A stretch of DNA of 34,530 nucleotides. Source: Thermoleophilia bacterium (GTDB taxonomy: Bacteria > Actinomycetota > Thermoleophilia > Gaiellales > Gaiellaceae). Of this stretch, positions 2,932 through 34,244 are shown one piece after another. The stretch covers positions 1-34,530 of the forward strand of contig JAICVP010000001.1 in assembly GCA_025935275.1 (NCBI GenBank). The letters are read 5' to 3'. The notes below the pieces were generated by a model. That model saw only the letters and a list, made by a program, of their open reading frames with translations, was not told the origin of the DNA and searched no databases. Every line of letters begins with the position of its first letter. Within the stretch, counting starts at the first letter, position 1. The position numbers and the translations under genes are program-made.

Positions 2932-3483
2932 ATGGCGACACGAGCCGTGCCCGCGCCCCTCGCGCAGCTGCCCAACGCGCTCACCATCCTCCGCCTGGTG
3001 CTTATCCCGGTGTTCGTGGTTCTCGTGGTGGACGCAGGCGGGGATGCGAGCTGGCCCGCCGGAATCGTCTTCGGCGTGGCGGGGATCACGGATCAGGTCG
3101 ACGGCTGGCTGGCGCGCCGCTGGGAGGTCGAGTCGGAGTTCGGTAAGTTCGCCGACCCGCTGGCCGACCGGCTGATGATCGACATCGCCGTCATCCTGCT
3201 CTTCGCGTACGACCGGCTCCCCTGGCCGGCGCTCGTCCTCATCGTCATCCGCGACGGGCTCCTCGTGCTCGGGACGCCGTTCGCGCTCCGGCGCGGGTAC
3301 GACTTCTCCGTCAGCTTCCTCGGCAAGGCGGCGACCTGGGTGCTGTACGCGTCGATCGCGTTCATCCTCGTCACGGACGCGGGCACCGACTGGCCCCTCG
3401 CGCTCTTCTGGAGCGGGGTTGCATTGGCTTCCCTGGCGGGAATCCTCTACGGCGTGGCGGTCTGGAAGGCGGTGAGGCAGTGA
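2932..3483 (+). CDS. pgsA: CDP-alcohol phosphatidyltransferase (phosphatidylglycerophosphate synthase-like)
   Basis: The signature [25 protein letters not shown] matches D-G-x2-A-R-x8-G-x3-D-x3-D. The protein is multi-TM and hydrophobic. The stop overlaps the next start (GTGA at 3480). Confidence 0.85.
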
Positions 3484-5996
3484 AGGCGGTCGTGATGGCG
3501 GGCGGCGAGGGCACGCGCCTGCGCCCGCTCACCTCGAACCAGCCCAAGCCGATGGTTCCCATCGTCGGCAAGCCGTGCATGGAGCACATCGTCGAGCTCC
3601 TCAAGCACCACGGCTTCGACGACATCGTCGTCACCCTCGCATTCATGCCGCAGGCGATTCGCGGCTACTTCGGCGCGGGGGAGAGCCACGGCGTTTCGAT
3701 CCGGTACTCCGTGGAGGAGTCTCCGATGGGCACCGCGGGCTCGGTGAAGCTCGCCGAGGACGCACTCGACGAGCCCTTCCTCGTCATCTCGGGTGACGCG
3801 CTCTGCGACATCGACCTCGGTGCGCTCGTGCGGTTTCACCAGGAAAAGGAAGCCATGGTGACCATCGGCCTGAAGAGCGTCGACAATCCGCTCGAGTTCG
3901 GGATCGTCGTGACCGACGATGACGGGCGCATCGAGCGGTTCCTGGAGAAGCCCTCCTGGGGCCAGGTCTTCACGGACACGATCAACACGGGCATCTACGT
4001 GCTCGACCCGGAGGTGCTCCGTCACGTGCCCGAGGGCGAGCCGTATGACTTCTCGAAGGAGCTCTTCCCGCTCCTCCTCGAGATGGGCCGCCCCCTCTAC
4101 GGCTACGTCGCGGACGGCTACTGGCAGGACATCGGGAACCTCGACCAGTTCCGCCAGGCGAACTTCGACGCTCTCGACGAGCGGGTGGCGCTGAACGTCG
4201 CCGGCATCAAGCTGCGCGGCAACGTCTGGGTCGGCGAGGGGGTCGAGCTGGCCGACCTCGAATCCGTCGAAGGCCCCGCGTTCATCGGCAACTACTGCCG
4301 CATCGCGCCGCAGGCGTCCGTCGGCCCGTACTCCGTGCTCTCGCCGAGCGTGACGCTGCGTGAGCATGCGCGCACGACGCGGTCGGTCGTGGACTCGTCC
4401 ACGTACATCGGCCGGAGCGCGCTCGTGGAGGGTGCGATCGCAGGCAAGTCCTGCGACATCAGGCCGCACGCCCGGCTGCACGAGGGGGTGGCGGTGGGGG
4501 ACAGCTGCACGATCGGCGAGCAGAGCGTCGTCATGCCTGGAATCCGCATCTATCCGTTCAAAGAGGTCGAAGCGGGCGCGCTCGTCGACCGGAACCTGAT
4601 CTGGGAGTCGCGCCTGGCCTCGAGGCTCTTCGGCCGCGACGCGGTCGCCGGCCTCGTGAACGTCGACCTGACGCCCGAGACCGCGCTGCGGGTCGGGATC
4701 GCGCTCGGCACGGCCCTGAAGCGCGGCGTCCGCGTGGTGACGAGCCGAGACGGCTCTCCCGCGAGCCGGCTCCTCAAGCGAGCGGTCGTCTCCGGCATCA
4801 CCTCCACGGGCGTCCAGGTCGCCGACCTCCACGTCATGCCGGCCGCCGTCAACCGCCACTTCCTGAAGAGCGAGGGCCTCGGCGCGGGCGTCCACGTTCG
4901 TCCGAGCACAGTCGATCCCGAGATCATGCAGATCCAATTCTTCGAGCCGCCGGGCATCCAGGCGACGCCCGAGTTCCTCAAGGAGATCGAGAAGCACTTC
5001 CAGCGCCAGGAGTTCCGGCGCGCCGCGTACGACGAGGTGGGCCAGATCTACACGCCGACACGGGCCGCCGAGACCTACGCGGACGACCTCCTGGGGACGC
5101 TCGACGTCGAGGCCATCAGGGCGCGCACCTTCAGGATCGTGGTCGACTATGCCCACTCGGCGGCCTCGATCGTGCTTCCGGTCGTGCTCGGCCCGCTCGG
5201 TGTCGAGATGATCGCCGCGCATCCGTACGGCGGGGAGCAGACCGCGGACTCGGCGGACGGGGTGCGAGAGGCGCTCGGCCATGCAAAGCGCCTCGTTGCG
5301 GCGGTCGGAGCCGACTTCGGCGTCGTGTTCGACCGCTCCGGCGAACGGATCTACCTCGTCGACGAGCAGGCGCATGAAGTCCCGGTCGAGCAGGAGCTGC
5401 TCCTTTTCCTCAGCCTCCTCGCCTCCGACGGCAAGAGCGGGACACTCGCGCTTCCGATCACGGTCACGAGCCTCGCGGAGCCGCTCGTCAAAGGCTCGAA
5501 GCTCGAGGTCACGCGAACGGCCGCCTCCCTCTCGGCGCTCACGCGCGCGTCCGCCGGTGACGGCGTCGTCTTCGCGGGGTCCATCGGCGGCGGCTTCGTC
5601 TTCCCCGAGTTCTTGCCCGCTTACGACGGCGTCGCCAGCCTCTGCAACCTGCTGCAGCTGCTCGCGCCCGTCGACCGTCCACTCTCGGAGCTTGTTTCCG
5701 GCCTGCCGCAGTCCACCGTCATCCATCGCCAGGTGCGCTGCCCGTGGGCCCGCAAGGGCGCTGTCATGCGCATCCTCACGGAACGCGTGAAGGGGAAGAA
5801 GGTGGACACCCTCGACGGGATCAAGGTCTACGAGGACGGCGGGTGGGCACAGGTGCTTCCCGACCCCGACGAGCCGCTCGTCCACGTGTACGCCGAAGGG
5901 AAGACACCGGAGGACGCGGCGACCCTCGAAGAGCGCTTCCTCAAGCTCGTCGAGGACATCGTCGCGGGCACCGATGAAGAGGACGGGGTGGCATAA
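3480..5996 (+). CDS. Sugar-1-phosphate nucleotidyltransferase (mannose-1-P guanylyltransferase-like) + hexapeptide beta-helix + phosphohexomutase-like C-terminal half
   Basis: The N-terminus [28 protein letters not shown] is the NTP-transferase G-loop. The middle part shows a left-handed beta-helix repeat pattern. The C-terminal ~460 aa is arranged like PGM/PMM, but the four catalytic motifs look degenerate (see findings). Confidence 0.85.
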
Positions 5997-6077
5997 CCCT
6001 CAAGTCCAGGTTGAAGGATTGGCGAGCGCTTGCCATACTTCAGGAGCCCCTCGTTCCTCTCCGATCGGAGTTAACAC

Positions 6078-6329
6078 GTGGAAGCCCTTCCCGACCTCGA
6101 TTCTCTGTCCGACCAGGAGTTGCGCGACCTCATCCGCGACCTCATGGACGAGGAGCGCGAGGTTTCGTACCGGCGCCGCATCCTGCATGGCAAGATCGAC
6201 ATCCTGCGCGCGGAGCTGCAGGCGCGCCTGAAGAAGGACGTGGGGGAGGGCAAGAGCCCGCTCCACGACATCGACGTCGACAAGCTGGCGGAGATCCTCG
6301 CCACCAAGGCGTCCCCGCCGGCCGAATAG
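6078..6329 (+). CDS. Small acidic coiled-coil protein, RsiG-like (single E-x3-S-x2-R-x3-[Q/H]-x3-D motif)
   Basis: 83 aa. GTG start with GGAG 8 nt upstream. The segment EEREVSYRRRILHGKIDILRAEL carries the spaced motif at residues E26/S30/R33/H37/D41. It is the first gene of the FHA-MerR-apt operon. Confidence 0.7.
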   Translation: MEALPDLDSLSDQELRDLIRDLMDEEREVSYRRRILHGKIDILRAELQARLKKDVGEGKSPLHDIDVDKLAEILATKASPPAE

Positions 6330-6336
6330 GCTCGCC

Positions 6337-6804
6337 GTGAGCCACGTCCACTGTCCGGAGTGCGGCTTCCAGAATCCCGAAGCCTCCAATTACTGCTCCA
6401 AGTGCGGAGCGCTGCTCCCGCGTGACGAGCCCGGCGCGCACACGACCATGACCTTCACCCCGGAGGAGGTGGCCGAGGACGACTCGCTCTCGCTCGCCGA
6501 TCTCCGCATCGAAGGCCCTGCGCTCGTGGTCCGCTCCGGCGGCGGCCGGTCCGGCGAGACATACGCCGTCGAGTCGGAGCGCCTGGGCATCGGCCGCGGG
6601 CCCGAGAACGAGGTCTTTCTCGACGACGTCACGGTCTCCCGCAGGCACGCGGTGCTCGTCCACCGCGACGACGGCTATTACATCGACGACGAGGAGAGCC
6701 TGAACGGCACGTACGTCAATCGCCGCAGGGTCGAGAGCGCCAAGCTCGAAGACGGAGACGAGGTGCAGATCGGGAAGTACCGCCTCACGTTCCTGGAGTC
6801 CTAG
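6337..6804 (+). CDS. FHA-domain protein (GarA/OdhI-like) with N-terminal zinc ribbon
   Basis: CPECGFQNPEASNYCSKCG is a CxxC...CxxC ribbon. The FHA core is LGIGRGPENEVFLDDVTVSRRHAVL...SLNGTYVNRRRV...GDEVQIGKYRLTF. A Thr-rich linker (HTTMTFTPEE) lies between them. Confidence 0.85.
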   Translation: MSHVHCPECGFQNPEASNYCSKCGALLPRDEPGAHTTMTFTPEEVAEDDSLSLADLRIEGPALVVRSGGGRSGETYAVESERLGIGRGPENEVFLDDVTVSRRHAVLVHRDDGYYIDDEESLNGTYVNRRRVESAKLEDGDEVQIGKYRLTFLES

Positions 6805-6806
6805 CC

Positions 6807-7502
6807 ATGGCCACCGTCGTCTCCCGAGTCGAGTCCGACGGGCCGCGCGAGCGGCCCCTAACCATCGGCGCGGTCTGCCGGCGGCTCCAGGACGAGTTCC
6901 CTGACATCTCGATCTCGAAGATCCGCTACCTCGAGGATCAGGGCCTGCTCACGCCGAGGCGGACGCAGGGCGGTTACAGGCTCTTCACCGAGGACGACGT
7001 CGACCGGCTCGAGACCATCCTCCGGCTGCAGCGCGACGAGTTCCTCCCCCTGCGCGTCATTCGCCAGGAGCTCGCGGCGCCGAGACGCAAGCCGCGCCAG
7101 CGGATGGGACTCGGCGAGCCCGAGCAGGAGCTCGACTTCGACACGCTGTGCGAGCGGACCGGGGCGACGCCCGCCTTCGTGCGCGACCTCGAGGATTACG
7201 GGCTGCTCGCCCCCGCCGGGGACGGCAGCGAGCGCCGGTATCCCGAACGGGACGTGGACGTCGTGACCGCGTGCCTGCAGCTCGCGCGTTACGGCGTCGA
7301 GCCCCGCAACCTGCGGCCGTTCAAGACGGGCGCGGAGCAGGAAGCCGCCAAGCTGGAGCAGATCGTCGCGCCGAAGCTCCGCTCCCACAACCCGGACCGG
7401 CACCGAGCAGGGCTCGAAGACCTGCAGACGCTCGCGGCGCTCTCCCAGGAGCTCTCACAGCTCCTCTTCTGGCGGGCCGTCCGCTCGCTGGCGCGGCCGT
7501 AA
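6807..7502 (+). CDS. MerR-family transcriptional regulator (Rv1828/FtsR-like)
   Basis: LTIGAVCRRLQDEFPDISISKIRYLEDQGLLTPRRTQGGYRLFTEDDVDRLETILRLQRD is a MerR HTH. The gene starts 2 nt after the FHA stop, with GGAG 8 nt upstream. Confidence 0.85.
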   Translation: MATVVSRVESDGPRERPLTIGAVCRRLQDEFPDISISKIRYLEDQGLLTPRRTQGGYRLFTEDDVDRLETILRLQRDEFLPLRVIRQELAAPRRKPRQRMGLGEPEQELDFDTLCERTGATPAFVRDLEDYGLLAPAGDGSERRYPERDVDVVTACLQLARYGVEPRNLRPFKTGAEQEAAKLEQIVAPKLRSHNPDRHRAGLEDLQTLAALSQELSQLLFWRAVRSLARP

Positions 7503-7503
7503 C

Positions 7504-8022
7504 GTGCCGGTCGACCTCAGCACGAAGATCCGGGACATCCCGGACTTCCCGAAGCGGGGCATTGTCTTCAAGGACATCATGCCGCTCCTCGCCGATGCCG
7601 AGGCGCTGCACGAAACGGTCGACCAGCTTGCCGAGTTCGCCGAGCCCCGCAAGCCCGACCTGATCCTGGGCGCCGAGGCCCGCGGCTTCATTCTCGGCGC
7701 CGCGCTCGCGTACCGGCTCAACTGCGGCTTCGTGGCCGCGCGCAAGCCCGGGAAACTCCCCTGGAGAACGGTCAGCGCGAAGTACGCGCTCGAGTACGGC
7801 TTCGACGCGCTCGAGCTCCACGCGGACGCGATCAAGAACGGCGCCCGGGTTCTGATCCACGACGATCTCCTCGCCACCGGTGGCACGGCGAAGGCGAAGG
7901 TCGACCTCGTGGAGCAGCTCGGCGGCGAGGTCGTCGGCCTCGCATTCGTCATCGAGCTGGAGTTCCTGCACGGGCGAGAGAAGCTCGACGGCTACGACCT
8001 CTGCTCGCTGATCAAGTACTGA
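7504..8022 (+). CDS. apt: Adenine phosphoribosyltransferase
   Basis: IRDIPDFPKRGIVFKDIMPLL and the PRPP loop VLIHDDLLATGGTAKA. The GTG start lies 1 nt after the MerR stop. Confidence 0.9.
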   Translation: MPVDLSTKIRDIPDFPKRGIVFKDIMPLLADAEALHETVDQLAEFAEPRKPDLILGAEARGFILGAALAYRLNCGFVAARKPGKLPWRTVSAKYALEYGFDALELHADAIKNGARVLIHDDLLATGGTAKAKVDLVEQLGGEVVGLAFVIELEFLHGREKLDGYDLCSLIKY

Positions 8023-24106: not shown

Positions 24107-26854
24107 TCAGGCGGTGGCGATGAGCTTCGAGGGCGGCTCGGCCTCGCCGGGCTCCTCGGTTTGGAGCAGGCGCTCGAGCGCCGAGACGCAGCGCGGGCAG
24201 AACTGGCTTCCCGATCCACGCCTGAGCTCGTCGAGAGCCTCGTCGGCGGGCCGGGCGGCGCGATAGATGCGCGTCGTGAGCATCGAGTCGAGCGCGTCGG
24301 CGACGTGAATGATGCGGGCGCCGAGCGGGATCTCCTCGCCCGAGATGCCGTCGGGATAGCCGGTGCCGTCGAAGCGCTCGTGGTGGTGGCGGATCGCAGG
24401 CACCGCGTCCTGCAGGAAGCCGAGGCGGTCGATGATGCGCGCGCCCTCGTCCGCGTGGCGCTGCATCAGGGCCCACTCGTCGGGCGTGAGGCTCGCCGGC
24501 TTCAGGAGGATGGCGTCCGGAATCGCGAGCTTGCCGATGTCGTGGAAGAGCGCCGCGTGTCCGAGGAGGTCGAGCTCGGCCTGCGAGAGACCCAGCTCCC
24601 GGCCGATGGCGAGGGCGAGCTGCTGGACGCGGCGCGAATGGCCGGCCGTGTAGGCATCCCGCGCGTCGACGGTTGCAGAGAGGCTCTCCATCGCCGCGGT
24701 CGAGCGCTCCTTCAGCAGCCGGTTCGCCTGCTCGAGGGAAACGTTCTGCTGGCGGATGGTCTCGGCGGCGCTGCGCAGCTTCTTCGTCGACTTCTCCGTG
24801 TGGCCGAGGTAGGCGGCCATCGTCTTGCGCATCAGGAAGAGCGGCAGGACGAAGACCGCGAGGCCGTAGAGGCCGATGGCGGAGTAGGCGAGCGCGATCG
24901 CCCCGCCGACCGCACCGAAGGCCACGTAGTGCGGCAAGAGCCACGAGAAGCGCTCGTTCCAGACACTCCTCCACTTGTCGTGCCCTTCCAGCGCCATCGC
25001 GCCCGAGAGGAGCCCCGTGTTGACCACGAAGTACGCGCCGCCGGCGACGAGGCCGGCCGCTGCGATGACGAGCTCGCCCGTGCGGGTCTCGCTGGAGCCG
25101 ATGCTGAACACGGCCGCCGCTGCGAGTGAGGCGAGGCTGAGCGCGCCGATGTTGAAGCAGACGTAGTACCAGGCATCGCGGCGTGAGCTCCACTCGACCG
25201 CGACGGTGGCCACGGCGAGCGGCAGCGCCGCTCTCGGGCCGAAGAGCGCTGCGCCGGCGAGGGCGCCGACGGCGCTGACCGAGATCGAGCCCGCTTCCAT
25301 CTCGAGGGAGAGCGCCTGCCCGCCGCCGACGAGGATGATGATCGCGATCAACCCGATCAGGTTGTCGTTCGTCCCGAGGAAGGCTCCCGCGATGCCGGCG
25401 CCGATCCCCGCGATGGAGACGAGGGCGACCAGCGAAGCCACGGGCGGCGACAGTGCGAGGAAGTGCGGACGGCCGGGCGAGTGCGGTCGCGGCTGCTGCT
25501 GCTCGCGGCGCTCGCTTGCTCGCTGCTTGGGGAGCGCACGCGAGACGACGGAGGCGTACTCCCCGTCCTCCGGCACGGCGGCGAGGCGCGCGGGCCGCTC
25601 GGAGGGCGAGAGGAGCAAAGGCTCGGAACTTGCGCCCTGGACGCGGTTCCGCCCCTGGAGCTTCGCGCGGTAGACGGCCAGGTCGGCCTGGTGGATGAGC
25701 TCGTTCGGGTCCGCCCCGTCCTTGGGGAAGCCCGCGACGCCGAGCGAGACCGTGGCGCGGATCGGCTCGCTCGAGGTCTCGACCTCGAAGCGGCGGTCGG
25801 CAACCGCCCGCCGGATGCGCTCGGCGATCTCGAGCGCTTGCTCCGGCGGGGTCTCCGGCAGCAGGATGGCGAACTCCTCGCCACCGAACCGTGCGGGCAC
25901 GTCGTAGTGGCGAAGCTGCTTGCGGAAGACCTCTGCAATGCCCTTGAGGACTGCGTCGCCGGCGAGGTGGCCGTACGAGTTGTTGATGTCCCTGAGGAGG
26001 TCGAGGTCGGCCATGATGATCGACATCGGCCGGTCCATCCGGCTCGCCCGGACGAGCTCCTCACGCAGCTCCCCCGCGAAGTAGCGGGCGTTGAAGAGCC
26101 CGGTCTTCGGATCGACGCGCGCCTCCTCCTGGAGGGCCGGGACGCTCAGCGAGCGGTGGATCAGGAGGAGCGGGGCGACTGCGGTGGGAAGCAGCCAGGG
26201 ATTCCACGTCCAGATGGCCGCGAAGGCGACGCCCAGCGCCGCAAGGACGAAGTCGGTCGAGAGGCTCTCTGCGGAGAAGAGCCCGGTCTCACGAAGCGTG
26301 TGCCCGCGCGCGAAGTGGAGCATGGTCGCGAGCAGGACGTGGTTCAGGGTGACGAAGACGACGGAAGCAGCGAGCCCGGCCAGCGCGAAGGTCACGTCCG
26401 GGTTCAGGTCCCAGCTTTCCACCAGGGTGACCGCCCCCCACGCCGCCAGCCCGTTCAGCGTGTAGTTGGCGATGTTGAAGCCCTGGATGTACCAGGGGTA
26501 GCGCACCTTCAGCCATTCCGGGATGTGCTGCACGACGCCCATGAGGGCGACGAGCTCCGGCGGGAGCAGCATCGCGGCCGGAATGAGGAAGACGATGGTC
26601 GTGTGGTAGCTCTGGTCGCGGGGCGTCCGCACGACGAAGAGCTGTGCGACGGCCGCGCAGGAGGCGAGCACGAGGAACGTCGGCCAGCCGTGCGTTCCGG
26701 GCTTCAGGTGCGAAAGCGGAACCAGAGCCGCGGCGACGGCGATTGCGGCGATCGTGAAGAGGTAGGCCTTGGCCTGGCGCGAGAGCGATTCCTCGGGCGG
26801 CTCGGGCCCGCTGCGGCGCTCGGTGGCGCCAAACTCGCTCGAAACTGCGCTCAT
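24107..26854 (-). CDS. Polytopic membrane hybrid: TM module - GGDEF diguanylate cyclase - second TM module - HD-GYP phosphodiesterase
   Basis: RHYDVPARFGGEEFAILLPET carries the I-site RxxD and an intact GGEEF. The HD-GYP part is HSRRVQQLA...LFHDIGKLAIP...HHERFDGTGYPDG. Two hydrophobic blocks of ~200 aa each. Confidence 0.9.
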   Translation of the reverse strand: MSAVSSEFGATERRSGPEPPEESLSRQAKAYLFTIAAIAVAAALVPLSHLKPGTHGWPTFLVLASCAAVAQLFVVRTPRDQSYHTTIVFLIPAAMLLPPELVALMGVVQHIPEWLKVRYPWYIQGFNIANYTLNGLAAWGAVTLVESWDLNPDVTFALAGLAASVVFVTLNHVLLATMLHFARGHTLRETGLFSAESLSTDFVLAALGVAFAAIWTWNPWLLPTAVAPLLLIHRSLSVPALQEEARVDPKTGLFNARYFAGELREELVRASRMDRPMSIIMADLDLLRDINNSYGHLAGDAVLKGIAEVFRKQLRHYDVPARFGGEEFAILLPETPPEQALEIAERIRRAVADRRFEVETSSEPIRATVSLGVAGFPKDGADPNELIHQADLAVYRAKLQGRNRVQGASSEPLLLSPSERPARLAAVPEDGEYASVVSRALPKQRASERREQQQPRPHSPGRPHFLALSPPVASLVALVSIAGIGAGIAGAFLGTNDNLIGLIAIIILVGGGQALSLEMEAGSISVSAVGALAGAALFGPRAALPLAVATVAVEWSSRRDAWYYVCFNIGALSLASLAAAAVFSIGSSETRTGELVIAAAGLVAGGAYFVVNTGLLSGAMALEGHDKWRSVWNERFSWLLPHYVAFGAVGGAIALAYSAIGLYGLAVFVLPLFLMRKTMAAYLGHTEKSTKKLRSAAETIRQQNVSLEQANRLLKERSTAAMESLSATVDARDAYTAGHSRRVQQLALAIGRELGLSQAELDLLGHAALFHDIGKLAIPDAILLKPASLTPDEWALMQRHADEGARIIDRLGFLQDAVPAIRHHHERFDGTGYPDGISGEEIPLGARIIHVADALDSMLTTRIYRAARPADEALDELRRGSGSQFCPRCVSALERLLQTEEPGEAEPPSKLIATA

Positions 26855-27052: not shown

Positions 27053-28858
27053 TCACGGGAGCGGCAGAGCGGTCGTGTCGAGCCCGAGGTCGGCTGCGAA
27101 CTGTGCGAGCTCGGCGTCGCTCAGATACTCGCCATCCTCGGACGGCGCCTCGACCTCGGCGTTGTCCGACCAGGAGGCCGAAGCCCACGAGGCGCTCGCC
27201 CACGAGGCGGCCGACTGGGAGTCGCTCGCCCAGGAGGCCGAAGCCCACGAGGCGGAGGCCCACGACGCGCTCGCCCAGCTGGCGGAGTTCCAGGACGCGG
27301 AGGCCCAGGAGGCGTCCGACCACGAGGCGCTCGCCCAGGACGCGTTTGCCGAGGCCGTGCTGGCCCAGCTCGCGGCGTCGAAGACCTTGCCGCCGCTGAT
27401 GTCCGTCCCGATGAACCGGTTCAGCGCCGCGTTCGGGTTCGGAGCGCTCGAGAGCGCCACCGCCTTGGCGACGTCCACGATCCCGACGCCCTGCGAGAGG
27501 GGTGCGGCATTCGGCGTCCTGCTCGCGGTCAGCATGAGCGCGCCCTTGACCTGGTCGGGCGTCCACGTGGGATGCGCCGAGAGGATCTGGGCAGCCGCGC
27601 CAGCCACCACGGGGGCGGCGAAGGACGTGCCGGAGAGCTGGATGTAGCCGGGGGCGACGACGCTCGTCGGCTTCTCGGTAACGAGGGTCGAGGCGGTCGG
27701 CACCGGGCCGACCATGTAGCGGCCGGGAGCGCCGATATCCGGCTTCGCGAAGCCGTCCAGCGTGTAGCCGTAGGCCGACCAGGGTGCCGCCAGGTCGTCG
27801 CTCGTCGACACGGAGCCGTCGATGTCATCCGCGCCGACCGTGATCACGAAAGGATCGTTGCCCGGGGCGAACGGAACGCCGCTCGGCCTGCCGTCGACAC
27901 CGTAGTTGCCGGCGGCGACCACCACGACGACGCCCGAGAACCAGAGTCGCTCGACCGCCTGATCCAGCGGGTCGTACATGAAGCTGTTCGCCTGCGATGA
28001 GTGGAGCGAGAAGTTCGCGACGCGGATCCCGTACTTGTCCTTGTTCGCGAGGATCCAGTCGGCGGCCGCGATGACGTCGCGCGTCATCGCCATGCCCTGA
28101 TCGTCCATGACATCGATCGAGACGAGCTTGGAAGCGGGCGCAGCGCCGGCATAGCCGTCGCCGGAGCCCGCTGCGATACCGGCCACGAAGGTGCCGTGGC
28201 CGCGGCCGTCGCCGGCTGAGTTGCCCGTCAGCGAGGTCATGTTCGCCTGAGCGACGACGCGGCCGCCGAAATCGGGGCGCGAAGCGTCGATGCCCGAGTC
28301 GACGACGGCGATCGTCGGCGTCGCCGCAGCCGTTCCGTTCGCCCAGAACTTCTGGACGCCGGAGACGAACGGCCAGCGCTGCTTGTTCGAGAGGCCGCCG
28401 GCGAGTTGGACGGGAGCGTCGGTGGTGATCGCGGCGATGCCCGGCTTCGAGACCAGGTGGACGATCTGCGCGCCGGTGAGGTTCGCTGCGACGCCGTTCA
28501 CCGAGGTGAACTGCCGCTTGATGCCCTTCGCAGCACCGCGCTCGCCGCTCTTGAGCTCGTTCTTGACGACCGAGGCGATCGCGGCGGTCGACTTGTCGGG
28601 GTTGCCCTGGATGATGACGTTGAATGTCTGCGACGGGCTCGCCTTCGCGGACGAGAGGAGCCCCGGCGTCGTGTAGGCGTAGCGCGAGGCGGCGCCTGCG
28701 GCCGACGAGGCCGTCAGCGCCAGCGCAACGACGACAAACGAGACGAAGCCGCGTCCACCCTTCCCCCAGAGCGCGCTCGAGCGCGTCTCGCCCTTTGCGG
28801 GCTTACCCCAGAGGGCACTCTTCCGAAGATCTCCGTGGGTACCACGATCGAGCCGCAT
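27053..28858 (-). CDS. Secreted subtilisin-like serine protease (S8), paralogue 1, with xxASW pentapeptide tail and acidic C-terminal extension
   Basis: Triad motifs IAVVDSGID, GHGTFVAGIAAG and SGTSFAAPVVAGAAAQ. Signal anchor FVSFVVVALALTASSAAGAA. Start at MRLDRG (28858). Confidence 0.9.
   Translation of the reverse strand: MRLDRGTHGDLRKSALWGKPAKGETRSSALWGKGGRGFVSFVVVALALTASSAAGAASRYAYTTPGLLSSAKASPSQTFNVIIQGNPDKSTAAIASVVKNELKSGERGAAKGIKRQFTSVNGVAANLTGAQIVHLVSKPGIAAITTDAPVQLAGGLSNKQRWPFVSGVQKFWANGTAAATPTIAVVDSGIDASRPDFGGRVVAQANMTSLTGNSAGDGRGHGTFVAGIAAGSGDGYAGAAPASKLVSIDVMDDQGMAMTRDVIAAADWILANKDKYGIRVANFSLHSSQANSFMYDPLDQAVERLWFSGVVVVVAAGNYGVDGRPSGVPFAPGNDPFVITVGADDIDGSVSTSDDLAAPWSAYGYTLDGFAKPDIGAPGRYMVGPVPTASTLVTEKPTSVVAPGYIQLSGTSFAAPVVAGAAAQILSAHPTWTPDQVKGALMLTASRTPNAAPLSQGVGIVDVAKAVALSSAPNPNAALNRFIGTDISGGKVFDAASWASTASANASWASASWSDASWASASWNSASWASASWASASWASASWASDSQSAASWASASWASASWSDNAEVEAPSEDGEYLSDAELAQFAADLGLDTTALPLP
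27164..27382 (-). repeat. In-frame 15-nt tandem repeats encoding (xxASW)n, 12 Trp
   Basis: Translation: FDAASWASTASANASWASASWSDASWASASWNSASWASASWASASWASASW...ASWSD. The DNA units contain CCAGG/CCTGG dyads. Confidence 0.85.
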
Positions 28859-28954
28859 TAGATCTTGTCCCTCTCCCTTTCCCTCCCCCACCAAGGCCGC
28901 AGGCCCGGGTGAGGTTTGCAACGCCAGGTCGCAAGCTAGGGCCTCGCAAAGAGA

Positions 28955-28984
28955 GGAGCCTCCCCCTTTTGTGGGAGAGGCTCC
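28955..28984 (-). terminator. Intrinsic terminator after protease 2
   Basis: Minus strand reads GGAGCCTCTCCC-ACAAAA-GGGGGAGGCTCC (12 bp including one G-U), followed by TCTCTTTGCG. It is near-identical to the hairpin at 30903-30932. Confidence 0.6.
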
Positions 28985-29035
28985 GAATTTCCCTCGTTTG
29001 GGGGATCAGCGCCCCCCGGGGGCGCATGCCCCGTT

Positions 29036-30814
29036 CTAGGAGGCCCAGGCGGCCGCTGCCCAGCTGGCGGCGTTCCAGCTCGCCGCGGCCCACGAGGCGG
29101 CTGCCCACGAGGCGCTGTTCCAGGAGGCCGAGGCCCAGCTCGCCTGGTTCCAGGAAGCACTCGCCCAGGAGGCCTGGTTCCAGGAGGCACTCGCCCAGGA
29201 GGCCTGGTTCCAGGAAGCCTGGTTCCACGACGCCTGGTTCCAGGAAGCGTCCGCGGTGGCCGCGTTCGACCAGCTGGCCGAGTCGAAGGCCGGGGCCCCG
29301 GTGGAGTCCGGCGTGACGTACTGGTTCAGGCCCGCATTCGGGTTCGGAGGCGTGCCGCCGGCCAGGGTGCTGTAGTCGAATCCGTACGCGCCCTTGACGT
29401 TCAGCTCGCCGACGCCGAGCCCCATGCCTGAGGCCGTCGCGCGCGCGGTCAGCATGAGAGCGCCCTTGACCTGGTCCGGCGTCCAGTTCGGATACTTGGC
29501 GAGGAGCTGTGCAGCCGCTCCCGAGACGATCGGAGCCGCGAACGACGTGCCCGACATCCACATGTAGCCGCTCGCGGTCACGCGCTCGGGATGCTCGAGA
29601 GGCATCGTCGCCGTGGCCTGCACCGGGCCGATGAGCGTGCGCCCGGGGGCGCCGATGTCCGGCTTCGCGAAGCCGTCCAGCGTGTAGCCGAAGGCCGACC
29701 AGGGAGCCGCGAAGTCGTCACCGCGGTTCGTGGGGGTGCCGTTCAGGTCGGCCGCGCCGACGGTGATCACGAAGGGATCGTTGCCGGGCGCGTAGGCGAC
29801 CGTCGTCGGGAGTCCGTCGACGCCGTAGGTCCCTGCAGCGACGACCACGACCACACCGTTGAACCAGAGCTTCTCGACCGCCTTGTTGAGCGGGTCGTAC
29901 ATGAAGCTGCCGGAGACCGTCGACTGCAGCGAGAAGTTCGCGACGCGGATGTTGTAACGAGCCTTGTTCGCGAGGATCCAGTCCGCCGCGGCGATCACGT
30001 CGCTCGTGATCGCCATGCCGTTGTCGTCCATGACGTCGATCGAGACGATCGGAGCCGTGGGGGCGGTGCCGGCATAGCCGTCGCGCGAGCCGGCAGCGAG
30101 GCCCGCCACGAGCGTTCCGTGGCCGCGGCCGTCGCCGCTCGAGTTCGGCAGCAGGCTCGTCATGGTCACCTTGGCGACCACGCGCGTGTTGCAGCCGACC
30201 CCGGTGTCTCCGAAGTCCGCGCGGCAGGACTGGACGCCCGAGTCGACCACTGCGATCGCCGGGGTTTTCAGGTTCGGATTCCAGACGTCGGCCGCGCTCA
30301 CAGCGCTGACCCAGTTCTGGTTGCTGGAGAAACCGTTGTTGTAGACGGACAGGCGAATCTTCGAGTCAGGGGTGATCGAGAGGATCCCCGTCCGGCCCGC
30401 GAGCTCGACGATCTGGGCGCCCGTCAGCTGGGCAGCCACGCCGTTGACGCTGGAAAACGTCCGCGTGAGGCCCTTGGCCTTCCCGGGCTTCGCCGCCGTC
30501 GAGTCGACGACCGTGTTCGCCACCGCGGAGCTCTTCGTGCCGCGCTTGCCCTGGACGATGACGGAGAAAAGCTGATTGGGGTGTGCCTGGGCGTCCGCCA
30601 TGAGGCTCGCGGGGACGATCGCGCTCTTGCCCTGAACCGAACGGTCGCCTGCCGTCGCCGCGACGGGAGCCGCCAGAGCGACGACGAGCGCCATTGCCAC
30701 GAAGCCTCGTCCGGGCTTGCCCCACAGGGCGCTCGAGCGAGTCGAGCCCTTCGCGGGCTTGCCCCAGAGGGCGCTCTGCCGAGTGTCTCCGTTTCTACCG
30801 CGTTCCAGCCGCAT
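29036..30814 (-). CDS. Secreted S8 subtilase, paralogue 2, ending inside the xxASW repeat
   Basis: IAVVDSGVQ, GHGTLVAGLAAG and SGTSFAAPIVSGAAAQ. Start at MRLERG (30814). Confidence 0.9.
   Translation of the reverse strand: MRLERGRNGDTRQSALWGKPAKGSTRSSALWGKPGRGFVAMALVVALAAPVAATAGDRSVQGKSAIVPASLMADAQAHPNQLFSVIVQGKRGTKSSAVANTVVDSTAAKPGKAKGLTRTFSSVNGVAAQLTGAQIVELAGRTGILSITPDSKIRLSVYNNGFSSNQNWVSAVSAADVWNPNLKTPAIAVVDSGVQSCRADFGDTGVGCNTRVVAKVTMTSLLPNSSGDGRGHGTLVAGLAAGSRDGYAGTAPTAPIVSIDVMDDNGMAITSDVIAAADWILANKARYNIRVANFSLQSTVSGSFMYDPLNKAVEKLWFNGVVVVVAAGTYGVDGLPTTVAYAPGNDPFVITVGAADLNGTPTNRGDDFAAPWSAFGYTLDGFAKPDIGAPGRTLIGPVQATATMPLEHPERVTASGYMWMSGTSFAAPIVSGAAAQLLAKYPNWTPDQVKGALMLTARATASGMGLGVGELNVKGAYGFDYSTLAGGTPPNPNAGLNQYVTPDSTGAPAFDSASWSNAATADASWNQASWNQASWNQASWASASWNQASWASASWNQASWASASWNSASWAAASWAAASWNAASWAAAAWAS
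29039..29287 (-). repeat. In-frame 15-nt tandem repeats encoding (xxASW)n, 15 Trp
   Basis: Translation: FDSASWSNAATADASWNQASWNQASWNQASWASASWNQASWASASWNQASWASASWNSASWAAASWAAASWNAASWAAAAWAS followed by the stop. Confidence 0.85.
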
Positions 30815-30902
30815 TCGAGTACTTCCCTTTCCTCTCTCACCTGAAGGCCGCAGGGCCGAGTGAGGTAGACGCCAGACCGGACGGTACGACCGAAAGACGA
30901 AA

Positions 30903-30932
30903 GGAGCCTCCCCCTTTTGCGGGAGAGGCTCC
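30903..30932 (-). terminator. Intrinsic terminator after protease 3
   Basis: Minus strand reads GGAGCCTCTCCC-GCAAAA-GGGGGAGGCTCC followed by TTTCGTCTTTCGG. Confidence 0.6.
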
Positions 30933-30977
30933 GAATTCACTCGATTGAGGGGTCAGCGACCTAGCATGCCGGCCCGC

Positions 30978-32720
30978 CTACGCTGCCCAGGACGCGGCTG
31001 CCCAGCTCGCCGCATTCCAGCTCGCGGCGGCCCAGGAAGCAGTTGCCCACGAGGCGTTGTTCCAGGAGGCCGAAGACCAGCTGGCGTTCGCCCAGGAAGC
31101 AGCAGCCCAGGAGGCCTGATTCCAGGAGGCGTTCGCCCAGGAAGCCTGGTTCCAGGAAGCCTGGTTCCAGGACGCCTGGTTCCAGGAGGCGTTTGCCGTT
31201 GCGTTGTTCGCCCAGCTCGCCGAGTCGAAGGTCACGCCACCGGTTCCGTCGGAGCCGACGAACTGGTTCAGCGCGAGGTTCGGGTTCGGCGGGTTCGTGA
31301 CGTCGAACGCGCCCTTGGCGTTGACTTCGCCGACGCCGAGCCCCATGCCGGCGGCCGTCGGGCGGGCGCTCAGCATGAGCGCGCCCTTGACCTTGTCCGG
31401 GGTCCAGGTCGGGTTCTTGGCCAGGATCAGGGCCGCGGCGCCGGAGACGACCGGGGCCGAGAACGACGTCCCGGACATCCACATGTACCCGGGGGCCGTG
31501 ACACGGTTCGGTGCCTCGAGCGCCATCGTCGACAGCGACGGAACCGGGCCGATGAGCTGGCGGCCGGGAGCGCCGATGTCGGGCTTCGAGAAGCCGTCGA
31601 GCGTGTAGCCGAAGGCCGACCACGGAGCCACGGTGTCGTCAGCCGACGTGTAGCCCGTGCCGTTGGTGTCGCTCGCGCCGACGGTGATCACGAAGGGATC
31701 GTTGCCGGGCGCATAGGCGACCGTCGTCGGCAGGCCGTCGACTCCGTAGTTGCCGGCTGCAGCGACCACGACCACGCCGTTGAACCAGAGCTTCTCGACC
31801 GCCTTGTTGAGCGGGTCGTACATGAAGCTCCCGGCCAGCGTCGACTGCAGCGAGAAGTTGGCGACCTTGATGTTGTAGGTGCGCTTGTTCGCCAGGATCC
31901 AGTCGGCAGCCGCGATGACGTCGCTCGTGAGCGCCATGCCGTTGTCGTCCATGACGTCGATCGAGACGATCGGAGCCGTGGGCGCCACGCCGGCATAGCC
32001 GCTCTTGGAGCCCGCGGCGATGCCCGCCACGAAGGTGCCATGACCGCGGCCGTCGCCGGTCGAGTTCGGGAGCAGGCCCGTCATCGTCACCGACTTGATG
32101 ACACGGCCGCCGAAGTCGAGGCGGCCCGCCTGCACGCCGCTGTCGACCACCGCGATCGCGGGGACGTTCAGCGGAGAGAGTGCCTGCCCGACGTAGAAGT
32201 CGGAGACGCCGGCCGAGTCGACCCAGGTCTGGTCGTTCGAGTACTGGGCCGACAGGCGGATCCGCGAGTCGAGCGTGATCGCGAGGATCCCCGGCCGCTT
32301 GGCCAGGTCGAGGATCTGAGCCCCGGTCAGCTGAGCGGAGGTGCCGTTCACGCTCGTGAACACCTTCTTGACGCCCTTCGCCTTGCCGGGCTTTGCGCTC
32401 AGTGAATTGTTCACCGACTGCGCGACCGTGGAGCTCTTCGTCCCACGGCTGCCCTGCACGATGACGCTGAAGACCTGGTTCGGGTGCGCCTGGGCCTCCG
32501 CGAGGAGGCTCGCCGGAACGAGAGCGCGCGCGGCCTGAACCGAACGACCGGAGCTGCCTGCGGTTGCAGCGACCGGAGCGGCCAGGGCGGCGACAAGCGC
32601 CAGAATCACAAAACCACGTCCGGGCTTGCCCCAGAGCGCGCTCGAACGAGACTCGCCCTTGGGCTTACCCCAAAGCGCACTGCCTCGCAAAGTCCCCCTT
32701 GTGCCGCTGCCTTGCCGCAT
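30978..32720 (-). CDS. Secreted S8 subtilase, paralogue 3, ending inside the xxASW repeat
   Basis: IAVVDSGVQ, GHGTFVAGIAAG and SGTSFSAPVVSGAAAL. Start at MRQGSG (32720), with GGAGGAAGGAA upstream. The longer track ORF (to 33566) is antisense to murT. Confidence 0.9.
   Translation of the reverse strand: MRQGSGTRGTLRGSALWGKPKGESRSSALWGKPGRGFVILALVAALAAPVAATAGSSGRSVQAARALVPASLLAEAQAHPNQVFSVIVQGSRGTKSSTVAQSVNNSLSAKPGKAKGVKKVFTSVNGTSAQLTGAQILDLAKRPGILAITLDSRIRLSAQYSNDQTWVDSAGVSDFYVGQALSPLNVPAIAVVDSGVQAGRLDFGGRVIKSVTMTGLLPNSTGDGRGHGTFVAGIAAGSKSGYAGVAPTAPIVSIDVMDDNGMALTSDVIAAADWILANKRTYNIKVANFSLQSTLAGSFMYDPLNKAVEKLWFNGVVVVAAAGNYGVDGLPTTVAYAPGNDPFVITVGASDTNGTGYTSADDTVAPWSAFGYTLDGFSKPDIGAPGRQLIGPVPSLSTMALEAPNRVTAPGYMWMSGTSFSAPVVSGAAALILAKNPTWTPDKVKGALMLSARPTAAGMGLGVGEVNAKGAFDVTNPPNPNLALNQFVGSDGTGGVTFDSASWANNATANASWNQASWNQASWNQASWANASWNQASWAAASWANASWSSASWNNASWATASWAAASWNAASWAAASWAA
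30981..31229 (-). repeat. In-frame 15-nt tandem repeats encoding (xxASW)n, 15 Trp
   Basis: Translation: FDSASWANNATANASWNQASWNQASWNQASWANASWNQASWAAASWANASWSSASWNNASWATASWAAASWNAASWAAASWAA followed by the stop. Confidence 0.85.
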
Positions 32721-32876: not shown

Positions 32877-34244
32877 GTGCGGCTCCGAGTCGAAATCGCC
32901 CTCGCGCGGGCAGCGGGAAGTCTCTCGCGGCTCGCCGGGAGAGGCGGCGGCACCACGATTCCCGGGAAGATCCTCGCCACGGTGGATCCCGCCGCCCTGG
33001 GGACGCTCGCGGGACGGCTCCCGCTCGGATCCGCGATCGTCTCGGCCACCAACGGTAAGACGACGACCGCCGCGATGGTCGCCGAGATCGTGGGAGACCG
33101 CGTCAAGCTTGCACACAACCGCGCGGGCGCGAACCTCGTCTCGGGGGTGGCCTCGGCCCTGCTCTACTCGGACGGGGCCGAGCTCGGGCTCTTCGAGGTC
33201 GACGAAGGCGCATTCCCGGACATCGCGGGCCGCATCAGGCCGCAGGCGGTCTGCCTCGGCAACCTCTTTCGCGACCAGCTCGACCGCTACGGCGAGCTGG
33301 AGCACATCGCCGAGCGCTGGCGCACGGCGGTCGCGGATCTCGACCCCGCGGCCTGGACGGTCGTGAATGCCGACGACCCCCTTCTGACCGACATCGCACG
33401 CGGGCGCACAGAGGCCCTCCGGTTCGGGATCGACGACCCTTCCGTGGCGCGGGAACGCCTTTCCCACGCTGCCGACTCGAAGTACTGCCGAACGTGCGGC
33501 GCGCCGTACGACTACGCGGCCTCGTACGTGGGTCATCTCGGCGACTACCGCTGCCCGAACTGCCACGAGGCGAGGCCCCCGCTCGACGTCGCCGCGAAGG
33601 CGATCGCGCTCGCAGGCCTCGAGAGCTCGTCCTTCGACCTCGTCACGCCAGAGGGGACCCGCCGGGTCTCCGTCCCGCTTCCGGGGCTCTACAACGTCTA
33701 CAACGCGCTCGCCGCAGCTTCGCTCAGCCTCGTCCTCGGCGCGGGCCTCGACGACATAGAGGCCGGGCTGGGGCGGTTTCGGGCGGCCTTCGGCCGGTTC
33801 GAGCGCATCACGGCAGGCGACCGCACCGTCCTCCTGCTCCTGATCAAGAATCCCGCGGGTGCGAACGAGGTCGTGCGGACGCTGGTCGACGCGGGTGCTC
33901 CCGGACGGCTGCTGATCGCGCTGAACGACGACATCGCGGACGGGCGCGATGTCTCCTGGATCTGGGACGTCGATTTCGAGCCGCTCATCGGGTCGCTGCA
34001 GGAGCTCGTCGCGACCGGCGCCCGCGCCCAGGAGCTGGCTCTCCGCTTCAAGTACGGCGGCCTCGACCCGGCCAGGATCACGCTCCTCCCGGATCTCTCG
34101 GAAGCCCTGTCCTACGGAGTCGAGAGCACGCCCGCCGGCGGCGAGCTCGTCGTTCTCCCGACCTATACCGCCATGCTCGCCCTGCGCGAGATTGCGTCCG
34201 ACCAGGGCCTGGTGCGTCCCTACTGGGAGGAAGCCGTCGCGTGA
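32877..34244 (+). CDS. murT: Lipid II isoglutaminyl synthase, Mur-ligase-like subunit MurT
   Basis: P-loop VSATNGKTTTAAMV. Cys4 ribbon CRTCGAPYDY...YRCPNCH. A DUF1727-like C-terminus. Followed by gatD with a GTGA overlap. Confidence 0.9.
   Translation: MRLRVEIALARAAGSLSRLAGRGGGTTIPGKILATVDPAALGTLAGRLPLGSAIVSATNGKTTTAAMVAEIVGDRVKLAHNRAGANLVSGVASALLYSDGAELGLFEVDEGAFPDIAGRIRPQAVCLGNLFRDQLDRYGELEHIAERWRTAVADLDPAAWTVVNADDPLLTDIARGRTEALRFGIDDPSVARERLSHAADSKYCRTCGAPYDYAASYVGHLGDYRCPNCHEARPPLDVAAKAIALAGLESSSFDLVTPEGTRRVSVPLPGLYNVYNALAAASLSLVLGAGLDDIEAGLGRFRAAFGRFERITAGDRTVLLLLIKNPAGANEVVRTLVDAGAPGRLLIALNDDIADGRDVSWIWDVDFEPLIGSLQELVATGARAQELALRFKYGGLDPARITLLPDLSEALSYGVESTPAGGELVVLPTYTAMLALREIASDQGLVRPYWEEAVA

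What the first reader, a model, noticed from the sequence alone, without database searches (positions are those of the whole stretch)
29039..29287. C-terminal (x-x-A-S-W)n tails resemble a Trp-centred variant of the pentapeptide-repeat (A[D/N]LXX) pattern
The tails are strict 5-residue repeats: NQASW, ASASW, AAASW, NSASW and similar. There are 12, 15 and 15 Trp in the three paralogues (27164-27382, 29039-29287, 30981-31229). The pattern is small residue, polar residue, large hydrophobic residue, x, x. This mirrors the pentapeptide-repeat consensus A(D/N)(L/F)XX that forms a four-sided beta-helix, but with Trp at the centre position. Fifteen repeats would give almost four coils with a stacked Trp ladder. 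Such a surface could bind glycan, cell wall or lipid, or act as a sorting or anchoring module. Paralogues 2 and 3 terminate inside the repeat with no capping sequence.
Basis: partly seen in the sequence, partly recalled or inferred. Interest (0 to 1): 0.7.

Follow-up and report, generated by a model that had tools for sequence, protein, structure and literature searches.

The report
Tryptophan five-residue repeat tails on subtilases
Three neighbouring secreted protease genes each end in a strictly conserved run of five-residue units with a tryptophan in every unit. This uncatalogued module is common in uncultured soil-type Actinomycetota, looks like a tryptophan version of the pentapeptide repeat, and has an unproven fold and function.

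Summary
Three tandem S8 subtilase genes on the minus strand end in (x-x-A-S-W)n arrays with 12, 15 and 15 Trp at exact 5-residue spacing.

The arrays are real protein features:
- All 120 closest homologues (63-99% identity, Gaiellaceae-type metagenome sequences) keep them.
- The in-phase residue is Trp in 1149 of 1151 cases.
- Length differences are multiples of five.
- dN/dS in the tail is no higher than in the catalytic core.

A profile search of 1.84 billion representative proteins found 563 hits. All 35 full-length carriers of the xxASW or xGxSW type that I checked are S8 subtilases.

Neither Pfam nor NCBIfam has a model for the array, and I found no paper describing it.

The pentapeptide-repeat resemblance can be measured. 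The only PDB hits are pentapeptide beta-solenoids (E = 5e-4). Changing only W to F or L makes the tail pass Pfam's Pentapeptide cut-off. The native sequence fails that cut-off. AlphaFold2 gives no confident fold (pLDDT about 30). Trp is almost never replaced by Leu or Phe.

Fold and function therefore remain open. My best guess is a folded solenoid-type rod or binding module.

In at least 10 of 20 other loci, from two classes, a c-di-GMP enzyme gene sits directly downstream.

The parts
29039..29287 (-). p2 tail: FDSASW lead unit, one Trp-less unit, then 14 contiguous x-x-A-S-W units (15 Trp). It ends W-A-S, followed by the stop codon.
29288..29350 (-). p2 conserved lead-in PPNPNxxLxx(Y/F)V...G.. 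that precedes FDSASW. It is present in distant array-bearing subtilases.
   Evidence: AF2 pLDDT is 75-83 here, modelled as a hairpin plus the start of a helix.
29036..30814 (-). p2 gene: 592-aa pre-pro-subtilase made of signal peptide, I9 propeptide, S8 domain, lead-in and Trp array. The start is taken at MRLERG.
   Evidence: The homologues are 593 aa.
30981..31229 (-). p3 tail: 15 Trp, ending W-A-A followed by the stop codon.
30978..32720 (-). p3 gene: 580-aa subtilase (= P0055).
27164..27382 (-). p1 tail: 12 Trp, with one interrupted unit.
27056..27163 (-). p1 acidic C-terminal extension after the array (NAEVEAPSEDGEYLSDAELAQFAADLGLDTTALPLP). The motif class (E/A)DNAEGE...L..EL..L..LP recurs in distant homologues.
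27053..28858 (-). p1 gene: 601-aa subtilase.
30701..30775 (-). p2 N-terminal doubled motif SALWGKP..RSSALWGKPGRGF, just upstream of the hydrophobic signal segment. The equivalents are at 32610-32681 (p3) and 28745-28819 (p1).
   Evidence: present in 113 of 120 homologues
24107..26854 (-). MASE9-GGDEF-HD-GYP membrane c-di-GMP enzyme gene, directly downstream of the three subtilase genes on the same strand. This neighbourhood recurs.

Best explanation
The tails are a selected, non-catalytic repeat module that belongs to one clade of Sec-secreted subtilases in Thermoleophilia (Gaiellaceae) and Acidimicrobiia. The unit is [small/hydrophobic](i-2)-Ser(i-1)-Trp(i)-x-x.

I think the most likely reading is a folded, solenoid-type rod built on pentapeptide-repeat geometry. 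That would be about 4 units per coil and about 3.5 coils in p2 and p3. The small residue at i-2 and the Trp would face the same side, and the two variable residues would be exposed.

The module would stay on the mature enzyme. It would act as a rigid spacer or a binding and retention element that holds the protease on a surface. That surface could be the cell envelope, a matrix or a polymeric substrate.

Shown here: the array exists, is conserved, is under selection and is specific to subtilases, and its sequence fits the pentapeptide register. Inferred: the fold, retention on the mature enzyme, and the binding or spacer role.
For: Conservation:
- All 120 closest homologues keep the array. The in-phase residue is Trp in 1149 of 1151 cases, Ala is at i-2 and Ser at i-1 in 1145 of 1151 each, and indels come in multiples of 5.
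- Individual units keep their own identity across orthologues. For example, x1 is Asn in units 1, 5, 9 and 12 and Ala in units 4, 10, 11 and 13 in at least 52 of 59 sequences. This pattern is expected if units are structurally non-equivalent.
- dN/dS in the tail is 0.06-0.23, against 0.11-0.22 in the core. dS in the tail is not depressed.

Fit to the pentapeptide register:
- The only PDB hits are pentapeptide solenoids.
- The W to F or L variant passes the PF00805 gathering cut-off.
- A native (TGATW)n array reaches 24.1 bits against 27 on Pentapeptide_3.
- The proteins end exactly at a unit boundary, A-S-W-x-x.

The array behaves as a module placed between domains:
- S8, array, acidic extension (p1).
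- S8, array, FIMAH domain (P0259).
- I9, array, S8 (P0135, P0141, P0228).
- [S/T]-W period-5 arrays also occur in the extracellular part of an adhesion-GPCR-like protein.

Specificity and secretion:
- 35 of 35 full-length carriers are S8.
- The proteins have signal peptides with no lipobox and no C-terminal membrane helix.

Superperiod:
- Tandem Repeats Finder's best-scoring period in p1 and p2 is 60 nt, which equals 4 units. This is suggestive only.
Against: - AlphaFold2 gives no strands and pLDDT about 30 for the repeats.
- The native sequence fails all Pfam and NCBIfam models.
- Trp is essentially never replaced by Leu, Phe or Met, although TGG to TTG is a single step. This argues that the indole itself matters, not just core filling.
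- Sister arrays combine Trp with Met, Ile, Leu or Val at i-2 (DGMSW, DGISW, NGLSW). That combination looks too bulky for a canonical pentapeptide core (my inference).
- No clear 4-unit superperiod appears at the protein level.
- p2 and p3 have no distal domain or cap.
- There is no experimental or contextual evidence for any ligand.
Confidence: 0.38

Rival explanations
1. The tail is an intrinsically disordered, multivalent 'sticker-spacer' sequence. Evenly spaced Trp stickers sit in small polar spacers. They adsorb the protease to polysaccharide, organic matter, membranes or each other. Alternatively, they form an array of identical docking or modification sites, comparable to the RNA polymerase II CTD heptads, which are disordered yet conserved.
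For: - AF2 gives pLDDT about 30 and no secondary structure in the repeats.
- The composition is A, S, N, Q plus W, with no charge in p2 and p3.
- Unit number varies from 6 to 37 between lineages, and many arrays are perfectly homogeneous.
- Trp is irreplaceable, as expected if the indole is the functional group.
Against: - Ala at i-2 and Ser at i-1 are as invariant as Trp.
- Units have position-specific identities conserved across orthologues.
- dN/dS is as low as in the catalytic core.
- Spacers in disordered regions normally drift.
- The AF2 run was weak overall.
Confidence: 0.27
2. The array is tied to the protease's own chemistry. It could be a tandem pseudo-substrate or self-substrate (..A-S-W | x-x..) that occupies the active-site cleft and inhibits the enzyme. 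It could also be trimmed stepwise, releasing Trp-ending pentapeptides.
For: - The array is found only on S8 subtilases (35 of 35).
- It can sit either C-terminal to the catalytic domain or between the propeptide and the catalytic domain.
- Subtilisins prefer a large hydrophobic or aromatic P1 with small P2-P4 residues. Bacillus Phr pentapeptides are released by subtilisin-family enzymes. Both statements are from my own knowledge and were not tested here.
- A membrane c-di-GMP sensor enzyme gene lies directly downstream in two classes.
Against: - There is no direct evidence of cleavage.
- The conserved order and identity of units is not needed for a peptide source.
- No peptide transporter or receptor gene is recognisable in the neighbourhood.
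- In some proteins further domains follow the array (p1, P0259).
Confidence: 0.13
3. The tail is a secretion or sorting signal, or a C-terminal propeptide. It would be recognised by a dedicated export or anchoring machine and then removed.
For: - It is in a C-terminal position in most carriers.
- It ends at a fixed register.
- A conserved unusual N-terminal SALWGK motif co-occurs with it. This hints at special handling.
Against: - There is no hydrophobic helix or basic tail of the kind seen in LPXTG, PEP-CTERM or GlyGly-CTERM signals.
- NCBIfam sorting-signal models give no hit.
- No sortase-like or exosortase-like neighbour is present.
- The array can be internal or followed by other segments (p1, P0259).
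- A normal Sec signal peptide is present.
Confidence: 0.08

Closest known systems
Pentapeptide repeat proteins (Pfam PF00805, PF13576, PF13599; MfpA, Qnr, Np275/276, PENT): right-handed quadrilateral beta-helix
   Same: - Tandem 5-residue units.
- A small residue at i-2, a polar residue at i-1, a large hydrophobic residue at i, and variable polar residues at i+1 and i+2. Gly at i+2 is common in sister arrays.
- The only PDB sequence hits are to this family.
- The W to F or L variant passes the Pfam cut-off.
   Different: - The centre residue is invariably Trp, not Leu or Phe.
- Ser replaces Asp or Asn at i-1.
- The native sequence is below all family cut-offs.
- No beta-helix is predicted.
- The array is an appendage of a secreted protease, not a stand-alone cytoplasmic DNA-mimic type protein.
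- p2 and p3 have no capping element.
RTX nonapeptide beta-roll at the C-terminus of serralysin-type secreted proteases
   Same: A short tandem repeat that forms a parallel beta-solenoid, appended C-terminally to a secreted protease. It folds only outside the cell. This analogy is from my own knowledge.
   Different: - Nine-residue Gly/Asp Ca2+-binding units.
- A type I secretion signal.
- A metalloprotease host.
- No Trp.
- No sequence similarity (no HemolysinCabind hit).
Aromatic-rich cell-wall-binding repeats (choline-binding CW_binding_1, GW modules, WxL domain)
   Same: C-terminal repeats rich in Trp or Tyr that hold secreted enzymes non-covalently on the envelope. This is a functional analogy from my own knowledge.
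   Different: - These units are 20-80 residues long.
- They are usually basic.
- They have their own Pfam models, none of which hit.
- The tails here are neutral or acidic.
Mycosins (TIGR03921): type VII secretion subtilases of Actinomycetota
   Same: This is the best NCBIfam match of the catalytic domain (100-135 bits). The Trp array occupies the position of the mycosin C-terminal linker and membrane anchor (profile positions up to about 297 of 353 are matched).
   Different: - The score is far below the 278.75-bit cut-off.
- There is no C-terminal transmembrane anchor.
- No ESX genes lie nearby.

Membership tests
Pentapeptide repeat family (Pfam PF00805 / PF13576 / PF13599) | At least 8 tandem units of exactly five residues | tested here: met
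   There are 14 contiguous in-phase units in p2 and p3. The period is conserved in all 120 homologues.
Pentapeptide repeat family (Pfam PF00805 / PF13576 / PF13599) | Small residue (A/C/S/T/V) at i-2, pointing inward | tested here: met
   Ala occupies i-2 in 1145 of 1151 units. The orientation was not tested.
Pentapeptide repeat family (Pfam PF00805 / PF13576 / PF13599) | Centre residue i is Leu or Phe (occasionally Met) | tested here: not met
   Trp occupies i in 1149 of 1151 units in Gaiellaceae-type tails and 487 of 493 in diverse arrays. Phe or Leu appears 3 times in total.
Pentapeptide repeat family (Pfam PF00805 / PF13576 / PF13599) | Asp or Asn at i-1 | tested here: not met
   Ser occupies i-1 in 1145 of 1151 units.
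Pentapeptide repeat family (Pfam PF00805 / PF13576 / PF13599) | Score above the curated Pfam gathering cut-off | tested here: not met
   The native tail scores 12.3 bits on Pentapeptide_4 against a cut-off of 38 and gets no PF00805 hit. Only the in-silico W to F or L variant passes PF00805, with 26.7 and 27.7 bits against 20.2.
Pentapeptide repeat family (Pfam PF00805 / PF13576 / PF13599) | Right-handed quadrilateral beta-helix, four units per coil | tested here: inconclusive
   AF2 gives the repeats pLDDT about 30 and no strands. The full-length run was poor even for the S8 core. The best DNA superperiod of 60 nt in p1 and p2 and the Asn spacing of 4, 4 and 3 units are only hints. The lag analysis was not decisive.
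Peptidase S8 (subtilases), the host protein | Pfam Peptidase_S8 match and an Asp-His-Ser triad | tested here: met
   E = 3e-40 to 3e-45. The DSG, HGT and GTSxxxP motifs are present in all three proteins. p2 has Thr at the oxyanion Asn.
Mycosin (TIGR03921) | Score at or above 278.75 bits, a C-terminal membrane anchor and an ESX locus | tested here: not met
   The scores are 100-135 bits. The proteins have no C-terminal hydrophobic helix. There are no ESX genes nearby.
Sortase / exosortase-type C-terminal sorting signals (LPXTG, PEP-CTERM, GlyGly-CTERM and similar) | A signature motif followed by a hydrophobic helix and a basic tail at the extreme C-terminus | tested here: not met
   The tails end ...ASWAA or ...AWAS with no hydrophobic stretch. 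NCBIfam gives no hit for the tail.
Known cell-wall-binding repeats (CW_binding_1/2, GW, SLH, LysM, WxL) | A match to the family profile | tested here: not met
   Pfam gives no such hits at E up to 10 on the tails or E up to 1 on the whole proteins.

The most novel reading that the evidence does not exclude
The array could be a polyprotein of Trp-ending pentapeptides (NQASW, ASASW, AAASW and others) that the attached subtilase releases from itself. The membrane c-di-GMP enzyme encoded directly downstream would sense these peptides, or the tail itself. That enzyme is MASE9-GGDEF-HD-GYP in Gaiellaceae and GGDEF-EAL in Acidimicrobiia. Together they would form a self-contained circuit that couples extracellular protease activity to c-di-GMP signalling in abundant uncultured soil Actinomycetota.
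Probability: 0.06. Interest if true: 0.85.

Novelty: new variant of a known kind. Interest (0 to 1): 0.55.

Why it matters
Gaiellaceae and Acidimicrobiia are abundant and mostly uncultured, and subtilases are major agents of extracellular protein turnover.

A module found on thousands of their subtilases has no Pfam or NCBIfam model and, as far as I could find, no literature. It has a Trp at every fifth residue that is essentially never substituted.

If it is a pentapeptide-type beta-helix with an all-Trp interior or ladder, it extends the sequence space of a well-studied fold. It would also give a very simple, designable repeat.

If instead it is a conserved disordered array, it is an unusual bacterial example of a strictly patterned aromatic tail.

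Either way it probably determines where these proteases act. The recurrent neighbouring c-di-GMP enzyme suggests a link to surface or biofilm behaviour.

Tried and rejected
- **AF2, full-length p2** with 53 close homologues. Mean pLDDT was 48 and even the S8 core was patchy, so the run says little about the tail.
- **AF2, tail only** with 36 diverse tails. Only the lead-in was confident. Both AF2 jobs are now used. I did not run fold search, because matches to a low-confidence model are meaningless.
- **The search for related loci with the tail alignment** failed because no stretch was conserved enough. I replaced it with a degenerate DNA pattern scan of genome contigs. Only about 20 loci were genuine.
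- **A 20-residue superperiod at the protein level**. Lags of 3-4 units score slightly higher than a lag of 5 units. This is confounded by relatedness and is not decisive.
- **Literature.** Exact motif strings gave 0 papers. Searches for tryptophan with pentapeptide repeat or subtilase, and for Gaiella, found nothing relevant.
- **RiPP-precursor reading.** No maturase-type genes (radical SAM, P450, cyclodehydratase) appear among the neighbours in the syntenic loci. I kept this only as part of the low-probability peptide-release rival.
- **Recent DNA slippage or low-complexity artefact.** I rejected this. The repeat copies are only 63-87% identical, codons are mixed, dS in the tail is not reduced, and dN/dS is low.
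- **Alternative reading frames.** ORFs overlap the repeats on both strands. They are by-products of the GC-rich repeat. The S8 frame is continuous and has homologues.
- **W(K/E)(D/N)GT arrays.** These were found by the same profile but sit in unrelated proteins (adhesion GPCR, RCC1, PKD). I treated them as a separate matter.
Full report
**What is there**

The region 27053-32720 carries three tandem, co-directional genes on the minus strand.
- p3 is at 30978-32720 (580 aa).
- p2 is at 29036-30814 (592 aa).
- p1 is at 27053-28858 (601 aa).

Each protein is a pre-pro-subtilase. Each has a long basic N-terminus with a hydrophobic signal segment, an Inhibitor_I9 propeptide and a Peptidase_S8 domain (E = 3e-40 to 3e-45) with the Asp, His and Ser motifs. 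A conserved lead-in, PPNPNxxLxx(F/Y)V...FD(S/A)ASW, follows the S8 domain, and the Trp array follows the lead-in.

Trp spacing is 5 throughout, with two exceptions: the second unit lacks Trp in all three proteins, and p1 has one more interrupted unit. p2 and p3 stop two residues after the last Trp. p1 continues with a 36-residue acidic extension.

**Is it more than low-complexity DNA?**

Yes.
- The 15-nt DNA copies match only 63-87%.
- Ala and Ser use three or four codons each, while the amino acids are fixed.
- Against the syntenic orthologues in locus L001, dN/dS in the tails is 0.06, 0.14 and 0.23. In the catalytic cores it is 0.11, 0.13 and 0.22.
- Synonymous divergence in the tails is not reduced.
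- Between paralogues p2 and p3 the tail (dN/dS 0.13) is more constrained than the core (0.37).

**Conservation**

A search with p2 found more than 6,700 homologues. The named ones are S8 peptidases from Gaiellaceae MAGs (lineage).

All 120 best hits (63-99% identity) keep the array. They have a run of 9-15 in-phase Trp and nearly all (118 of 120) end two residues after the last Trp (one ends one residue after it).

At positions flanked by in-phase Trp, the residue is Trp in 1149 of 1151 cases. Ala occupies i-2 and Ser occupies i-1 in 1145 of 1151 cases each. Positions i+1 and i+2 vary among A, N, S and Q.

Units are not interchangeable. In the main 13-unit class, x1 is Asn in units 1, 5, 9 and 12 and Ala in units 4, 10, 11 and 13, in at least 52 of 59 distinct sequences.

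**Spread**

A profile of the three tails was searched against 1.84 billion representative proteins. It found 563 hits at E up to 1e-3 and 58 at E up to 1e-10. Nearly all are period-5 Trp arrays. They fall into three kinds.
- Type i: xxASW-type arrays with the same PNPN...FDxASW lead-in.
- Type ii: xGxSW or xGxTW arrays.
- Type iii: W(K/E)(D/N)GT arrays.

All 35 full-length proteins of kinds i and ii are S8 subtilases. Kind iii sits in unrelated proteins.

A few subtilases carry the array between the I9 propeptide and the catalytic domain (P0135, P0141, P0228). One has a FIMAH domain after the array (P0259).

In one-genome-per-species contigs, genuine arrays occur in several groups:
- MAGs of Gaiellaceae and Thermoleophilia;
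- MAGs labelled 'Actinomycetes' or 'Actinomycetota';
- Acidimicrobiia;
- one Acidobacteriota MAG.

**Comparison with known families**

Pfam and NCBIfam have no model that matches the tail. The best is Pentapeptide_4 at 12.3 bits against a cut-off of 38. I found no literature.

The pentapeptide-repeat resemblance is nevertheless measurable.
- A tail profile hits only pentapeptide beta-solenoids in the PDB: the designed 'beta1' proteins (E = 5e-4) and Np275/276 (E = 0.15). The alignment puts A-S-W against A-(N/D)-L.
- Substituting only W by F or L makes the p2 tail pass the PF00805 gathering cut-off. A reversed control gets no hit.
- A native (TGATW)n array reaches 24.1 bits against 27 on Pentapeptide_3.
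- In the diverse arrays, Gly holds i+2 in 53% of units, as in the canonical consensus.

In that fold, i and i-2 point inward, four units make one coil, and i-1, i+1 and i+2 are exposed (bioRxiv 10.1101/255810). The fixed and variable positions of the tail fit this arrangement.

**Evidence against simple membership**

- AlphaFold2 gives no beta-helix. The full-length run was poor overall (mean pLDDT 48, tail about 23). The tail-only run gave a confident lead-in (pLDDT 75-83) but pLDDT about 30 and no strands in the repeats.
- Trp is essentially never exchanged for Leu, Phe or Met. A mere core position would allow these.
- Sister arrays pair Trp with Met, Ile or Leu at i-2. That looks overcrowded for the canonical core (inference).
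- If the pentapeptide geometry holds, the Trp ladder would be buried.

**Mechanism**

My best-supported reading (confidence about 0.4) is a folded solenoid-like rod that remains on the mature, Sec-secreted enzyme. It would serve as a spacer or as a binding and retention element.

The rivals are:
- a conserved but disordered multivalent Trp tail (about 0.27);
- a pseudo-substrate or self-cleaved peptide source (about 0.13);
- a sorting signal or propeptide (about 0.08).

The tails are neutral to acidic, which argues against electrostatic binding to anionic wall polymers (inference).

**Context**

The triple subtilase block lies between murT/gatD-like genes and a 915-aa MASE9-GGDEF-HD-GYP gene. 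The same arrangement occurs in related contigs.

In at least 10 of 20 other genuine loci, a c-di-GMP enzyme gene lies directly downstream on the same strand. It is GGDEF-HD-GYP in Gaiellaceae-type loci and GGDEF-EAL in Acidimicrobiia and Acidobacteriota loci. This may indicate a functional link. I did not test it against a genome background.

**Verdict**

As a statement about fold and function, it is unproven. I rate it a new variant of a known kind of repeat, with moderate to high interest (0.55).

Noticed in passing
window 24107-26854 (-); loci L001, L017, L024, L036, L083, L088, L107, L039, L046, L067, L077: A c-di-GMP turnover gene lies directly downstream of the Trp-array subtilase gene or genes, on the same strand, in at least 10 of 20 other genuine loci. 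It is MASE9-GGDEF-HD-GYP in Gaiellaceae-type loci and GGDEF-EAL in Acidimicrobiia and Acidobacteriota loci. In L077 the gene is divergent. Different architectures in two classes suggest a functional link rather than plain synteny. No background statistics were computed.
   Followed up: partly
window 30701-30775, 32610-32681, 28745-28819 (all minus strand): A doubled N-terminal motif, SALWGKP..(K)G..RSSALWGKPGRGF, lies just before the hydrophobic signal segment in all three paralogues. It occurs in 113 of 120 homologues. Single or triple (A/M)(L/Q)WG(S/T)G copies occur in distant array-bearing subtilases (P0132, P0201, P0218). No family model matches it. It resembles the tail unit (S-A-x-W).
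   Followed up: partly
window p2, codon for residue 329 of the 592-aa protein (motif AAGTYG, near 29828-29830): p2 has Thr at the position of the subtilase oxyanion-hole Asn. p1, p3 and all 108 of the 120 homologues in which the motif was found have AAGN(Y/F)G, including the 99%-identical P0001. This could be a real attenuating variant or a single-base assembly error (AAC to ACC).
   Followed up: partly
window 27056-27163 (-): The p1-type tail is followed by an acidic extension (…SDNAEVEAPSEDGEYLSDAELAQFAADLGLDTTALPLP). The same class, (E/A)DNAEGE…L..EL..L..LP, recurs after arrays in distant homologues (P0148, P0163, P0179, P0182, P0180 and others). Its function is unknown.
   Followed up: no
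P0121 and about 20 other representatives: Very long period-5 Trp arrays of another type occur in unrelated proteins. Examples are (NGQVW)93 and W(K/E)(D/N)GT units in runs of 9-68. One carrier is an adhesion-GPCR-like protein with 7tm_2 and GPS domains. Others have RCC1 or PKD domains. [S/T/V]-W at period 5 may be a more general extracellular rod-like repeat.
   Followed up: no
P0135, P0141, P0228: In a few subtilases the (xSASW)n array lies between the I9 propeptide and the catalytic domain and is not at the C-terminus.
   Followed up: no
L046 (DATLRX010000096.1), 3391-7779: A subtilase with an (SGASW)15 tail followed by a GGDEF-EAL gene sits on a contig binned as Candidatus Acidiferrales (Acidobacteriota, a diderm phylum). 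This could be horizontal transfer or a mis-binned contig.
   Followed up: no
window 32877-34244 (+) and syntenic loci L001/L002: A MurT-like gene (Mur_ligase_M + MurT_C) lies divergently next to p3. In the syntenic loci L001/L002 it has a GatD-like GATase_3 partner. These are peptidoglycan amidation genes. The neighbourhood is conserved in relatives, with no evidence of a functional link.
   Followed up: no
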